Below, in pieces: positions 20,157-21,491 of a DNA stretch of 64,000 nt (its first letter is position 1; each line of letters starts with the position of its first letter). The notes beneath the pieces are model-generated. The model did no database searches. It was not told where the DNA came from and worked only from the letters and a program-made list of their open reading frames with translations. Source of the DNA: an uncultured Leptospirales bacterium (GTDB taxonomy: Bacteria > Spirochaetota > UBA4802 > UBA5368); assembly GCA_964625625.1 (NCBI GenBank), contig CAZVEG010000001.1, forward strand, positions 29,657 through 93,656. Reading direction: 5' to 3'. The position numbers and the translations under genes were made by a program.

Positions 20157-21491
20157 ATGAGGCATATCGTCATCATCGGGCTTGGAAGCGCCGGCTACGC
20201 CGCGCTCATGACGATCAGGCGCACGGCGCCGAAAACGCGCATAACCGTAATCGATCCAAAGCGAAGCGATCTCATGCATCCCTGCGGTATTCCCTATGCA
20301 CTGGGGGGCCACGTTCCGGTTGCGGGCCTCGAACAGGACATCTTCCTTTCGAAGATGAGCGTTGAAAAGCTTGCGGGGAAGGCTTCCCGGATAGACGGCG
20401 AGGCGCGGAGCGTAACCGTGCACACGGACGACGGAGAGCGGGTGATCTCGTACGATGCGGCGATCATCGCCACGGGGAGCGTCCCGGCAATACCGCCGAT
20501 AGCGGGAGTGGAACGCACGCTCTATAACGGCCTCTACCCGCTCGCGACCGTCGACGATTTAAAGAAGATACAGGATCGCCTGGATTCTTCGGTGCGGGGG
20601 GTCGTAGTCGGGGCGGGAGCGATCGGTCTGGAGGCGGCAATAGGACTCCGCAAACATCTCAGGGCGGTCACCCTCTTCGAAATGAAGCCGCAGGTTCTGC
20701 CGGGCATCCTGGACCCGGAGATGTCCGTGCCGGTGCGCGAGCATCTGGAATTTCACGGTATCGAGCTCATCACCGGAGCCTCCATCGACGGCATTCTGGG
20801 CGGCGACGCCTTCGCGGGCGTGACGAGCGGTCCGATGAAGTACGATGCCGAAATAGGCATACTCTCCGCCGGCTTCAGGGCGAACACCGAAGCGGCCGCC
20901 GGCTCGGGAATAACGCTCGAATCGTCGGGCATTACGGTGAATGAGAGGATGCAGACCTCCCTGCCGGGTGTTTACGCGGCGGGTGACTGCACGGCCGCAT
21001 GGTCCGTCATCGACGGCTCCAGGCTTCCCGCGAAGCTCGCCACCGGCGCCTATCGCCAGGGCATCGTCGCCGGCGTCAACGCGACCGGAGGTGACATCGT
21101 CTACCGGGGAACGGCCGGGACCTTCGTCACCAGGGTCGGCAATCTCGAGGTTGCGGGCACCGGCTATACCACGGAGGCCGCGAAGGCCGCCGGGTACACT
21201 CCGGTGGAGGGAAAGATCCGGACCGGCATTCTTCCGGATTATTTCCCGGGCAACACCGAGATATCACTCAAAGTCATATGCGACCGGGGATCGGGGCGGT
21301 TTCTGGGGGCGCAGGCGGTTGCGGAGAAGGGCGCGGCCGAGCGCATCAACCTCGTGAGCATGGCGCTGGAAACCGGTGTGATGCCGGTCGATTTCTGGAG
21401 GATCGAGCTCGCCTACTGCCCGGCGGTAAGCGAGGTGATAGATCCCCTGAACAAGGCGGTCGAATTCGCGTTAAGGAGGATTGCCCGATGA
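20157..21491 (+). CDS. FAD/NAD(P)H pyridine-nucleotide-disulfide oxidoreductase, NADH-oxidase / CoA-disulfide-reductase (single-Cys) family
   Basis: GxGxxG at residues 7-12, a single redox Cys in DLMHPCGIPY (Nox Cys42 position), and a second Rossmann GAGAIGLE. Its stop overlaps the gcvT start (ATGA). Confidence 0.8.
   Translation: MRHIVIIGLGSAGYAALMTIRRTAPKTRITVIDPKRSDLMHPCGIPYALGGHVPVAGLEQDIFLSKMSVEKLAGKASRIDGEARSVTVHTDDGERVISYDAAIIATGSVPAIPPIAGVERTLYNGLYPLATVDDLKKIQDRLDSSVRGVVVGAGAIGLEAAIGLRKHLRAVTLFEMKPQVLPGILDPEMSVPVREHLEFHGIELITGASIDGILGGDAFAGVTSGPMKYDAEIGILSAGFRANTEAAAGSGITLESSGITVNERMQTSLPGVYAAGDCTAAWSVIDGSRLPAKLATGAYRQGIVAGVNATGGDIVYRGTAGTFVTRVGNLEVAGTGYTTEAAKAAGYTPVEGKIRTGILPDYFPGNTEISLKVICDRGSGRFLGAQAVAEKGAAERINLVSMALETGVMPVDFWRIELAYCPAVSEVIDPLNKAVEFALRRIAR

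What the first reader, a model, noticed from the sequence alone, without database searches (positions are those of the whole stretch)
20157..21491. Nox/CoADR-type single-cysteine flavoprotein as the first gene of the riboswitch-controlled gcv operon
The glycine cleavage system needs an L-protein to reoxidise dihydrolipoyl-H. Canonical Lpd is a two-Cys class I disulfide reductase and is usually encoded elsewhere. Here a 444-aa NADH-oxidase/CoA-disulfide-reductase-family enzyme carries a single redox Cys in HPCGIPY. It is the first ORF after the riboswitch and overlaps gcvT by ATGA, so it is co-regulated by glycine. It may be a non-canonical L-protein, or a NADH-recycling partner for glycine oxidation under anoxic conditions.
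Basis: inference. Interest (0 to 1): 0.55.

Follow-up and report, generated by a model that had tools for sequence, protein, structure and literature searches.

The report
Candidate non-canonical L-protein in gcv operon
The first gene of this glycine-riboswitch-controlled glycine-cleavage operon encodes a flavoprotein of the NADH-oxidase/CoA-disulfide-reductase type that stays next to glycine-cleavage and lipoate genes in several bacterial and archaeal lineages, so it is probably the operon's missing lipoamide dehydrogenase (L-protein), built on a different redox centre from the textbook enzyme.

Summary
A tandem glycine riboswitch and a terminator hairpin precede a 444-aa flavoprotein gene (20157-21491). 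Its stop codon overlaps the gcvT start (ATGA). Downstream are gcvH, gcvPA, gcvPB, lipA, a split lplB-like ORF and lplA. The protein belongs to the Nox/CoADR fold group (TM about 0.9). It scores below every curated cut-off for CoADR, Nox and Lpd, lacks the His10 of Nox/Npx and has no CxxxxC motif.

About 100 related loci were surveyed. Every close relative with readable flank sits directly beside gcvT or gcvH. More distant relatives show other arrangements: gcvT-gcvH-X-lipA, gcvPA-gcvPB-X, gcvH-X, and X-lipA-lplA in DPANN archaea. About 50 ordinary CoADR-like relatives (26-34% identity) show no gcv link. No canonical lpd lies in the window or in any flank.

The linked clade has its own signature: invariant His41-x-Cys43, an NAD-type Glu175, and a second conserved cysteine (Cys421). 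Cys421 lies in AY-C-PxVSE, the loop that lines the partner subunit's active site in relatives. So "single-cysteine" is only partly right.

Best reading (about 0.6, inferred): an NAD+-linked dihydrolipoyl-H-protein dehydrogenase. No assay exists, and genome-wide absence of lpd could not be checked.

The parts
19864..19964 (+). Glycine riboswitch aptamer 1
   Evidence: Rfam RF00504, 67.3 bits, E 7.7e-12, full model length. The same element lies upstream of the homologous gene in L001, L003 and L004.
19966..20051 (+). Glycine riboswitch aptamer 2 (tandem)
   Evidence: Rfam RF00504, 39.8 bits against a gathering score of 32.
20046..20087 (+). Terminator-like hairpin plus U-run; presumed expression platform of an ON switch
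   Evidence: The RNA fold gives -23.7 kcal/mol, z = -2.62. The stem AGGAGGAAGGCG/CGUCUUCCUUUU is followed by UUUUUUUAUUU, and its 5' arm overlaps the end of aptamer 2. The consensus terminator scan missed it because its loop rule allows only 3-8 nt.
20157..21491 (+). Nox/CoADR-fold flavoprotein, 444 aa; candidate L-protein (dihydrolipoyl-H dehydrogenase)
   Evidence: AF2 model pLDDT 92.8. Foldseek TM about 0.9 to CoAPR, Npsr, CoADR, Nox and Npx. Conserved synteny with gcv and lipoate genes.
20283..20285 (+). Codon of Cys43, the flavin-proximal redox cysteine, within H41-P42-C43-G44
   Evidence: Invariant in 33 of 33 sequences. It aligns with Npx Cys42 and with the catalytic cysteine of the CoADRs. 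His41 is also invariant in the gcv/lipoate-linked clade.
21417..21419 (+). Codon of Cys421, in E-L-A-Y420-C421-P-A-V-S-E426
   Evidence: Conserved in 30 of 33 sequences. Solved relatives have AYAPP(F/Y) at this place. This is the only segment with pLDDT below 50 in the monomer model. MAFFT and global hhalign both place it on E. coli Lpd His445, with Glu426 on Glu450, at low confidence.
21488..22576 (+). gcvT (aminomethyltransferase)
   Evidence: Pfam GCV_T 1.7e-93 and GCV_T_C. ATGA overlap with the upstream gene, and an AAGGAGG Shine-Dalgarno sequence inside its 3' end.
22648..23040 (+). gcvH (lipoyl carrier H-protein)
   Evidence: Pfam GCV_H 4.3e-44. The VESVKA lipoyl-lysine motif is visible in the translation.
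23042..24367 (+). gcvPA
   Evidence: Pfam GDC-P 5.2e-123.
24447..25871 (+). gcvPB (an alternative start is possible at 24420)
   Evidence: Pfam GcvP2_C and Aminotran_5; 90% identical to the L003 homologue when read from Met at 24447.
25859..26716 (+). lipA (lipoyl synthase)
   Evidence: Pfam Radical_SAM and LIAS_N.
26713..27015 (+). LplB-like ORF: a free-standing C-terminal domain of lipoate-protein ligase
   Evidence: Pfam Lip_prot_lig_C, 25.6 bits against a cut-off of 24.
27015..27842 (+). lplA-type lipoate/octanoate protein ligase, catalytic domain; last gene of the operon
   Evidence: Pfam LplA-B_cat 2.5e-47. The next gene, an HD-domain protein at 27808-29103, is convergent on the minus strand.

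Best explanation
The gene most likely encodes the L-protein of this glycine cleavage system: a homodimeric FAD enzyme that reoxidises dihydrolipoyl-GcvH and passes the electrons to NAD+. It does this with a Nox/CoADR-type active site in place of the CxxxxC disulfide of canonical Lpd.

Shown: glycine binding to the tandem riboswitch should prevent formation of the terminator hairpin, so the flavoprotein would be transcribed together with gcvT, gcvH, gcvPA, gcvPB, lipA, lplB and lplA. The operon therefore carries every part needed to build and run a lipoyl-dependent glycine decarboxylase except a recognisable L-protein.

Inferred mechanism (the reverse of CoADR catalysis): the Cys43 thiolate adds to flavin C4a. 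One thiol of the reduced lipoyl arm attacks Cys43-S, giving a Cys43-S-S-lipoyl mixed disulfide and FADH-. FADH- reduces NAD+; the invariant Glu175 predicts NAD rather than NADP. The second lipoyl thiol then closes the dithiolane ring and releases Cys43. A dithiol substrate therefore needs only one enzyme cysteine.

The invariant His41, Tyr362 and Tyr420 would act as acid/base and thiolate-stabilising groups. The conserved Cys421-...-Glu426 comes from the partner subunit. It may act as an interchange thiol or as a substitute for the His-Glu dyad of Lpd. That step is speculative.
For: (1) Synteny across lineages and gene orders.
- Fourteen Spirochaetota-type loci with readable downstream flank (46-80% identity) all have gcvT or gcvH directly downstream.
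- L102 (a 'Deltaproteobacteria' MAG), L103 and L104 show the same.
- Loci of the UBP15/ADurb.Bin236 type (38-40% identity) are arranged gcvT-gcvH-X-lipA, with 33-80 nt gaps.
- L031 is gcvPA-gcvPB-X, L037 is gcvH-X and L020 is X-gcvH.
- DPANN archaeal relatives are X-lipA-lplA.

(2) Specificity. About 50 loci of ordinary CoADR/Nox type at 26-34% identity (most with YGGCGIPY and AYAPPF) have no gcv neighbour; one has lipA 2.8 kb away. In an NJ tree most linked sequences form one clade.

(3) In L007 and L104 the gene pairs with gcvT alone, with no lipA within 8-10 kb. This ties it to the cleavage system rather than to lipoate synthesis.

(4) No canonical Lpd is found in the 64-kb window or in any locus flank, by tblastn with E. 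coli Lpd and by a CxxxxC motif search.

(5) Clade signature: His41 33/33, Cys43 33/33, Glu175 33/33, Tyr420 33/33, Cys421 30/33, Glu426 26/33 plus 5 Gln.

(6) The protein is not an equivalog of any named enzyme. CoADR scores 249.9 against a cut-off of 578.8, Nox 191.7 against 600, and Lpd 128 against 408.8. Npx His10 is replaced by Ser or Ala.

(7) The fold is that of thiol/disulfide-active single-Cys PNDORs. Tyr362 and Tyr420 fall at the positions of S. aureus CoADR Tyr361 and Tyr419. The second match is inferred from the alignment end-points 3-432 / 3-431. Both tyrosines were targets of the mutant structures 4eqr, 4eqs and 4eqw.
Against: - No biochemical data exist for any member of the family.
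- Canonical Lpd is often encoded away from gcv genes, so its absence from the locus is weak evidence. Its absence from the whole genome could not be tested.
- Three gcv-linked Leptospirales sequences have Ala at position 421, so Cys421 is not required for whatever the shared function is.
- A sister group that also has AYCP but carries an NADPH-type TKRS motif is not gcv-linked.
- Solved relatives use a tightly bound CoA (PMC6026696). Whether this protein binds CoA is unknown.
- The archaeal X-lipA-lplA clusters have no gcv gene within 6 kb. They fit a role in lipoate handling as well as they fit an E3 role.
Confidence: 0.6

Rival explanations
1. A helper of lipoate assembly or maintenance rather than the catalytic L-protein. 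For example, it might supply reducing equivalents to LipA, reduce free lipoate or lipoamide before ligation, or set the redox state of newly made lipoyl-GcvH.
For: lipA lies 33 nt downstream in the UBP15-type loci. lipA-lplA follow the gene in DPANN archaea with no gcv gene nearby, and L021 and L022 have only lplA next to it. The window operon itself carries lipA, lplB and lplA.
Against: L007 and L104 have X-gcvT with no lipA within 8-10 kb. L031 (gcvPA-gcvPB-X) and L037 (gcvH-X) show no lipA in the flank available. Radical-SAM enzymes are normally reduced by flavodoxin or ferredoxin, not by a cysteine-based disulfide reductase (established knowledge). Oxidising the dihydrolipoyl product of LipA is itself the E3 reaction, so this rival largely merges with the main explanation.
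Confidence: 0.15
2. An ordinary CoA-dependent disulfide, persulfide or polysulfide reductase (CoADR, CoAPR or Npsr type) that serves thiol or sulfur homeostasis and sits in gcv operons for regulatory reasons unrelated to lipoate.
For: The closest sequence and structure matches are CoAPR 8a56, AfNpsr 6pfz, PhCoADR 4fx9 and BaCoADR-RHD. Tyr362 and Tyr420, the counterparts of CoADR Tyr361 and Tyr419, are conserved. A basic residue at about position 22 is largely kept.
Against: The protein scores far below both CoADR equivalog cut-offs. The SFxxC/SYxxC context is replaced by the invariant L-x-H-P-C. About 50 loci of more typical CoADR-like relatives show no gcv linkage, whereas this clade does so in at least four gene orders. 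No sulfur-metabolism genes lie in the operon.
Confidence: 0.1
3. An NADH oxidase or peroxidase that consumes O2 or H2O2. It would either regenerate NAD+ for glycine oxidation or protect the oxygen-sensitive LipA and the reduced lipoyl arm.
For: JGI annotates homologues as 'NADH oxidase (H2O2-forming)'. AfNpsr and other relatives show side NADH-oxidase activity (PMC7969121). The window also encodes cytochrome bd subunit I and a flavodiiron protein, so the organism does meet O2.
Against: The score is 191.7 against the Nox equivalog cut-off of 600. His10 of Nox/Npx is Ser or Ala in all 33 members. The MAGs come largely from anaerobic digesters and sediments (record titles). An O2-dependent enzyme cannot recycle NADH under anoxia. 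O2 defence would not explain strict co-location with gcvH, gcvT or lipA across phyla.
Confidence: 0.08

Closest known systems
CoA-disulfide, CoA-persulfide and NADH-dependent persulfide reductases (PhCoADR 4fx9/5l1n, AfNpsr 6pfz, EfCoAPR 8a56, BaCoADR 3cgb, SaCoADR 1yqz)
   Same: Same fold (Foldseek TM 0.87-0.93), with 28-32% identity. One flavin-proximal cysteine sits at position 42/43. The two active-site tyrosines are kept (Tyr362, Tyr420). The NAD-type acidic residue matches that of AfNpsr. The same homodimeric architecture is expected, with the C-terminal loop of one subunit lining the other's active site.
   Different: Below both CoADR equivalog cut-offs. The motif is L-x-H-P-C instead of S-(F/Y)-x-x-C. 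AY-C-P-x-V-S-E replaces AYAPP(F/Y). There is no rhodanese domain. The genomic context is glycine cleavage and lipoate rather than sulfur metabolism. CoA binding is unknown.
H2O-forming NADH oxidase and NADH peroxidase (LbNOX 5er0, SpNox 2bc0, EfNpx 1joa)
   Same: Same fold (TM about 0.9). A single cysteine aligns with Npx Cys42.
   Different: The His10 equivalent is Ser or Ala. The C-terminal motif differs (Npx has FFFQPAFD). The score is 191.7 against a cut-off of 600. The setting is anaerobic.
Canonical dihydrolipoyl dehydrogenase (Lpd, E3, GCS L-protein; E. coli Lpd, TIGR01350)
   Same: Same superfamily and three-domain layout. hhalign probability is 99.5% over 303 columns. The NAD site has an E-M motif like Lpd's VVEMF. 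The predicted reaction and physiological partner (lipoyl-GcvH) are the same. Weak alignments put a C-P-x-x-S-E motif on the H-P-x-x-x-E dyad of Lpd.
   Different: No CxxxxC redox disulfide. The N-terminal region does not align. The score is 128 against a cut-off of 408.8. Cys stands in place of the catalytic His.
Unresolved or non-canonical L-proteins in anaerobes and archaea (Peptoclostridium/Eubacterium acidaminophilum, Thermococcus kodakarensis)
   Same: These organisms have P, T and H proteins but no clear Lpd. PMC12674515 lists only doubtful gcvL candidates in P. acidaminophilum, including a 'CoA-disulfide reductase'. PMC11032457 reports only 'limited homology' candidates for the L-protein in T. 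kodakarensis. From memory, not checked here: in E. acidaminophilum a thioredoxin-reductase-like flavoprotein was reported to serve as an atypical lipoamide dehydrogenase.
   Different: Those cases involve other protein families or remain unassigned. None is described as a gcv-operon-encoded Nox/CoADR-type enzyme. No paper in the searched library makes that link.

Membership tests
Single-cysteine Nox/CoADR-type pyridine nucleotide-disulfide oxidoreductases (PNDOR) | N-terminal FAD Rossmann fold (GxGxxG), a second NAD(P)H Rossmann fold, and a C-terminal dimerisation domain | tested here: met
   Pfam Pyr_redox_2 2.3e-49, Pyr_redox 2.6e-15, Pyr_redox_dim 2.3e-11. G8/G10/G13 and G152/G154/G157 are invariant.
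Single-cysteine Nox/CoADR-type pyridine nucleotide-disulfide oxidoreductases (PNDOR) | One redox cysteine at about position 42 next to the flavin, and no CxxxxC disulfide | tested here: met
   Cys43 aligns with the catalytic cysteine of 6pfz, 6ruz, 4fx9 and Npx. No CxxxxC motif.
Single-cysteine Nox/CoADR-type pyridine nucleotide-disulfide oxidoreductases (PNDOR) | Three-dimensional fold of the group | tested here: met
   AF2 pLDDT 92.8, pTM 0.90. Foldseek TM 0.87-0.93 to CoAPR, Npsr, CoADR, Nox and Npx; the top 46 hits all belong to this group.
CoA-disulfide reductase (NCBIfam TIGR03385, NF007123, NF010037) | Score at or above the curated equivalog cut-off | tested here: not met
   249.9 against 578.8; 219 against 458; 118.8 against 394.
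CoA-disulfide reductase (NCBIfam TIGR03385, NF007123, NF010037) | Active-site tyrosines from the partner subunit (S. aureus Tyr361' and Tyr419') | tested here: met
   Tyr362 in 28/33 (Trp in 5) and Tyr420 in 33/33. Positions follow the alignment end-points and the AYAPP alignment.
CoA-disulfide reductase (NCBIfam TIGR03385, NF007123, NF010037) | Tightly bound CoA forming Cys-S-S-CoA | not testable with these tools
   Needs mass spectrometry or a crystal structure. The cleft-forming segment (PhCoADR residues 56-76; PMC6026696) is divergent here, but this cannot be interpreted from sequence.
H2O-forming NADH oxidase / NADH peroxidase | Score at or above the equivalog cut-off (NF046103) | tested here: not met
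   191.7 against 600.
H2O-forming NADH oxidase / NADH peroxidase | Active-site His10 next to the Cys-sulfenic acid | tested here: not met
   Npx His10 aligns with Ser11. The family has Ser in 26 and Ala in 7 sequences. The Npx sequence used was verified as identical to PDB 1joa.
Canonical dihydrolipoyl dehydrogenase (TIGR01350; class I disulfide reductase) | Score at or above the equivalog cut-off | tested here: not met
   128 against 408.8.
Canonical dihydrolipoyl dehydrogenase (TIGR01350; class I disulfide reductase) | Redox-active CxxxxC disulfide in the FAD domain | tested here: not met
   No such motif in the protein or anywhere in the six-frame translation of the window.
Canonical dihydrolipoyl dehydrogenase (TIGR01350; class I disulfide reductase) | His-Glu catalytic dyad (HPxxxE) from the partner subunit | tested here: inconclusive
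   MAFFT and global hhalign place Cys421 on His445; hhalign also places Pro422 on Pro446 and Glu426 on Glu450. Confidence is low, and local hhalign stopped before the motif. His is replaced by Cys; Glu is kept in 26/33.
Glycine cleavage system L-protein (functional role) | Genetic association with gcvT, gcvH and gcvP | tested here: met
   Found in the same operon in the window. The linkage is conserved in more than 25 loci, in at least four gene orders.
Glycine cleavage system L-protein (functional role) | NAD+-dependent oxidation of dihydrolipoyl-H-protein | not testable with these tools
   An enzyme assay is required. Only the NAD-type Glu175 (33/33) could be read from sequence.
Glycine-riboswitch-regulated gcv operon | Tandem RF00504 aptamers followed by an expression platform upstream of the first gene | tested here: met
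   The riboswitch is also present upstream of the orthologues in L001, L003 and L004.

The most novel reading that the evidence does not exclude
This clade is a previously unrecognised class of dihydrolipoyl dehydrogenase. Its redox centre would be built across the dimer interface: Cys43 of one subunit and Cys421 of the other, with Glu426 standing in for the His-Glu dyad of Lpd. It would be the long-missing L-protein/E3 of many anaerobic bacteria (Spirochaetota, UBP15-type and others) and of DPANN archaea that have lipA and lplA but no canonical Lpd.
Probability: 0.2. Interest if true: 0.8.

Novelty: new variant of a known kind. Interest (0 to 1): 0.6.

Why it matters
The L-protein is the one glycine-cleavage component that is often unassigned in anaerobes and archaea. 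Published examples are T. kodakarensis (PMC11032457) and P. acidaminophilum (PMC12674515). The single-cysteine PNDORs are in turn a group whose physiological substrates have been hard to establish (PMC6026696).

A gcv- and lipoate-linked clade with its own active-site signature gives both problems a concrete candidate that can be tested. If confirmed, four things follow:
- A widespread annotation would be corrected. These proteins are now labelled 'NADH oxidase (H2O2-forming)' or 'FAD-dependent oxidoreductase'.
- Metabolic reconstructions of glycine catabolism, and of the reductive glycine pathway, in uncultured anaerobes would be completed.
- It would show that lipoamide dehydrogenase chemistry evolved twice within one flavoprotein superfamily.
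- A compact alternative E3 would become available for engineering glycine-cleavage or glycine-synthase modules.

Tried and rejected
It was repeated on 11 loci.
- The first tblastn used a wrong frame for gcvT and lplA. This was corrected.
- Local hhalign of the family against E. coli Lpd stopped at residue 414, before the C-terminal motif. A global run and MAFFT reach the motif, but only at low confidence. The Cys421/His445 equivalence is therefore kept as a lead, not a result.
- The consensus terminator scan found nothing. The hairpin has a longer loop region and was shown by folding instead.
It was rerun on A2. The tool gives no coordinates and no dimer, so the Cys43-Cys421' distance could not be measured.
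- Six literature searches for any link between Nox/CoADR-type enzymes and glycine cleavage or lipoamide found none. A search for S. aureus CoADR Tyr419 found nothing usable.
- I considered that AYCP alone marks lipoyl specificity and rejected it. An AYCP sister group with an NADPH-type TKRS motif lies next to Hdr-like or unrelated genes, and three gcv-linked Leptospirales proteins have AYAPP.
- I considered a pseudo-ORF or a wrong start and rejected both. The N-terminus matches all homologues from residue 1-3.
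Full report
**1. What is in the window**

Rfam finds two adjacent glycine aptamers at 19864-19964 (67.3 bits) and 19966-20051 (39.8 bits). The 3' end of aptamer 2 overlaps the 5' arm of a strong hairpin, AGGAGGAAGGCG...CGUCUUCCUUUU. The hairpin runs into UUUUUUUAUUU at about 20046-20087 (-23.7 kcal/mol, z = -2.6). This is the usual layout of a glycine ON switch that works by anti-termination.

The next ORF is 20157-21491 (444 aa, ATG). Its TGA stop overlaps the ATG of gcvT (ATGA at 21488-21491). An AAGGAGG sequence lies just upstream of that ATG.

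Pfam confirms the downstream genes:
- gcvT, 21488-22576
- gcvH, 22648-23040
- gcvPA, 23042-24367
- gcvPB, 24447-25871
- lipA, 25859-26716
- lplA-type ligase, 27015-27842
- a 100-aa Lip_prot_lig_C ORF, 26713-27015, which is an LplB-like split domain

The next gene is convergent, so the operon ends at 27842. The operon therefore encodes the P, T and H proteins and the whole lipoylation machinery, but no recognisable L-protein. The best genome matches are uncultured Spirochaetota MAGs (74-80% identity).

**2. What the protein is**

It has the three Pfam domains of pyridine nucleotide-disulfide oxidoreductases. Its best PDB sequence matches are:
- A. fulgidus Npsr/NoxA-3, 6pfz, E = 4e-60
- T. thermophilus NADH-dependent CoADR, 6ruz
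- P. horikoshii CoADR, 4fx9

An AlphaFold model built on a 28-sequence alignment is confident (pLDDT 92.8). It superposes at TM 0.87-0.93 on CoAPR, Npsr, CoADR, Nox and Npx.

It is still not an equivalog of any named enzyme:

| Model | Score (bits) | Cut-off (bits) |
|---|---|---|
| CoADR (TIGR03385) | 249.9 | 578.8 |
| Nox (NF046103) | 191.7 | 600 |
| Lpd (TIGR01350) | 128 | 408.8 |

The flavin-proximal cysteine is Cys43, in L-M-H41-P-C43-G-I-P-Y. The protein has no CxxxxC motif, and its cysteines are at 43, 278, 375 and 421. The His10 of NADH peroxidase and oxidase aligns with Ser11. The Npx sequence used for this comparison was first verified as identical to PDB 1joa.

**3. Comparative genomics: the main evidence**

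I collected about 100 loci that encode relatives, from species-representative genomes, metagenomes and look-ups of individual homologues. I located gcv and lipoate genes in them by tblastn.

- Fourteen Spirochaetota-type loci with readable downstream flank (46-80% identity) all have gcvT or gcvH directly after the gene. The full order is usually X-gcvT-gcvH-gcvPA-gcvPB-lipA(-lplA). This group includes a 3.16-Mb contig (L099). L102 (a 'Deltaproteobacteria' MAG) and L103 show the same order.
- L007 and L104 have only X-gcvT, with no lipA within 8-10 kb.
- Loci of the UBP15/ADurb.Bin236 type (38-40% identity) have a different order, gcvT-gcvH-X-lipA, with 33-80 nt spacers.
- Other arrangements are gcvPA-gcvPB-X (L031), gcvH-X (L037), X-gcvH (L020) and X-lplA (L021, L022).
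- Relatives in DPANN archaea (Woesearchaeota, Nanoarchaeota, Diapherotrites) are arranged X-lipA-lplA (L029, L047, L051).
- About 50 loci of 26-34% identity, most with the ordinary YGGCGIPY ... AYAPPF motifs, have no gcv neighbour. One has lipA 2.8 kb away.

In an NJ tree rooted on E. coli Lpd, most of the linked sequences form one clade (L031 and L037 fall outside it). That clade lies next to an unlinked sister group (FSPCG ... AYCPAVS[DE]L, with an NADPH-type T-K-R-S motif). Members of the sister group lie beside HdrA/MvhD- and HdrB-like genes or archaeal housekeeping genes.

A glycine riboswitch also precedes the orthologues in L001, L003 and L004. L099 has an AsnC-type regulator gene upstream instead. 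tblastn with E. coli Lpd and a class-I CxxxxC motif search find no canonical lpd in the window or in any flank.

**4. Signature of the linked clade**

In a 33-sequence alignment that spans Spirochaetota and the UBP15 type:

| Position | Conservation |
|---|---|
| His41 | 33/33 |
| Cys43 | 33/33 |
| Glu175 (end of the second Rossmann β-strand; NAD-type) | 33/33 |
| Tyr420 | 33/33 |
| Tyr362 | 28/33 (Trp in the other 5) |
| Cys421 | 30/33 |
| Glu426 | 26/33 (Gln in 5) |

Tyr362 and Tyr420 fall where S. aureus CoADR has its active-site Tyr361' and Tyr419'. This follows from the alignment end-points. Both tyrosines were targets of the mutant structures 4eqr, 4eqs and 4eqw. So the site resembles a thiol/disulfide site, not an oxidase site.

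Cys421 sits in E-L-A-Y-C-P-A-V-S-E, where solved relatives have AYAPP(F/Y). This is the only segment the monomer model cannot place (pLDDT below 50 for 419-426). That is expected for a loop that packs against the partner subunit. MAFFT (twice) and a global hhalign put Cys421 on His445 of E. coli Lpd. hhalign also puts Pro422 on Pro446 and Glu426 on Glu450. In Lpd these residues form the partner-subunit acid-base dyad (established knowledge). The confidence of these alignments is low, and local hhalign stops short of the motif.

Three Leptospirales sequences have Ala421 and are still in full gcv operons. Cys421 is therefore not indispensable.

Among the best 150 cluster representatives of a 1.8-billion-protein library, the G(L/F)G ... 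HxC ... AYCP pattern fills roughly the top 40-60 ranks. It then grades into ordinary CoADR-like motifs. The family is sizeable, and public sources name it only 'FAD-dependent oxidoreductase' or 'NADH oxidase (H2O2-forming)'.

**5. Most likely mechanism**

Shown:
- co-regulation with the cleavage system by glycine
- conserved linkage to lipoyl-GcvH genes
- a CoADR-like thiol-reactive active site
- a predicted preference for NAD

Inferred: the enzyme is the L-protein and runs the reverse of the CoADR cycle.
1. The Cys43 thiolate adds to flavin C4a.
2. A thiol of dihydrolipoyl-GcvH attacks Cys43-S, giving a mixed disulfide and FADH-.
3. FADH- reduces NAD+.
4. The second lipoyl thiol closes the dithiolane ring and frees Cys43.

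A dithiol substrate brings its own resolving thiol, so one enzyme cysteine is enough. His41, Tyr362 and Tyr420 are candidates for acid-base and thiolate stabilisation.

Three sources of a second sulfur remain open: none is needed; Cys421' acts as an interchange thiol; or a bound CoA is used, as in the relatives (PMC6026696). I put about 0.6 on the L-protein role and about 0.2 on the specific inter-subunit two-cysteine centre.

**6. Rivals**

- **Lipoate-assembly helper (0.15).** lipA and lplA adjacency supports it, especially in DPANN archaea. The X-gcvT pairs without lipA argue against it. Oxidising the dihydrolipoyl product of LipA is in any case the E3 reaction.
- **Ordinary CoA-dependent persulfide or disulfide reductase (0.1).** This is the closest structural family. 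However, the equivalog scores fail, the motif context differs, and typical members show no gcv linkage.
- **NADH oxidase or peroxidase (0.08).** This is the database label, and the window does encode cytochrome bd and a flavodiiron protein. However, His10 is missing, the habitats are anaerobic, and O2 defence would not explain the synteny.

**7. Novelty and limits**

Six full-text searches found no paper that connects a Nox/CoADR-type enzyme with glycine cleavage or with lipoamide dehydrogenase function. Recent papers still describe the L-protein as unidentified in T. kodakarensis (PMC11032457). They also call it doubtful in P. acidaminophilum, where a 'CoA-disulfide reductase' is among the candidates (PMC12674515).

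I classify the finding as a new variant of a known kind: a known reaction and a known superfamily, but a different subfamily and redox centre. The main gaps are:
- no biochemistry for any member
- no dimer coordinates
- no whole-genome check for a canonical lpd in the MAGs that carry the operon

Noticed in passing
window 26713-27015 (+): A 100-aa ORF between lipA and lplA carries only the Lip_prot_lig_C domain (25.6 bits, cut-off 24). The lipoate ligase here therefore seems to be split into an LplB-like accessory protein and an LplA catalytic protein, as in the bipartite archaeal ligases.
   Followed up: partly
L029 3973-6865; L047 5950-10370; L051 6004-9491: Relatives in DPANN archaea (Woesearchaeota, Nanoarchaeota, Diapherotrites; 35-38% identity; H-x-C and AYCP motifs) are clustered with lipA and lplA but have no gcv gene within 6 kb. 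The lipoylated target in these reduced genomes is unknown.
   Followed up: partly
L024 3034-10771; also L023, L026-L028, L033-L035: A sister group has FSPCG and LAYCPAVS[DE]L motifs and an NADPH-type T-K-R-S motif in place of the NAD-type Glu. It is not gcv-linked. In L024 it lies between ferredoxin-like genes and HdrA/MvhD- and HdrB(CCG)-like genes. L033 is archaeal (TBP gene nearby).
   Followed up: partly
cluster representatives P0280-P0376; L044, L046, L054: Many more distant relatives carry a cysteine on the other side of the active-site tyrosine ((T/F)-C-Y-A-P-P instead of A-Y-C-P). A cysteine flanking this tyrosine is therefore a recurrent, unexplained feature of the anaerobe and archaeal branches of the family.
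   Followed up: no
L031 128-4357: A different lineage has gcvPA-gcvPB followed by a relative with FSPCGLPF, LSYNPPISQ (no Cys421) and an NADP-type HITKRT motif. This may be an independent recruitment of this fold to a gcv cluster.
   Followed up: no
window 14246-15565 (-) and 16201-17454 (-): Cytochrome bd oxidase subunit I (Pfam 8.6e-157) and a flavodiiron-type protein (ODP plus flavodoxin domains) lie a few kb upstream of the operon. This anaerobe-type spirochaete therefore has O2-scavenging equipment. The ORF at 13210-14214 may be bd subunit II; this was not checked.
   Followed up: partly
window 20088-20156: No Shine-Dalgarno sequence is visible within 15 nt of the flavoprotein's ATG; the nearest GGGAGG is about 40 nt upstream. 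In contrast, gcvT has AAGGAGG embedded in the 3' end of the flavoprotein gene. Translation initiation of the first gene may be unusual or weak.
   Followed up: no
L099 9460-9924; L005 and L007 upstream regions: Not all orthologous operons have a glycine riboswitch at Rfam's gathering score. L099 has an AsnC/Lrp-type regulator gene directly upstream instead. No riboswitch was detected in L005 or L007.
   Followed up: partly
window 24420 / 24447: The gcvPB start is ambiguous. The longest ORF starts at 24420 (MLSWKRGKN-MPVIF...), but homologues align from the Met at 24447.
   Followed up: partly
window 40980-43292 (+): A 770-aa ORF with no Pfam match at E <= 1e-8.
   Followed up: no
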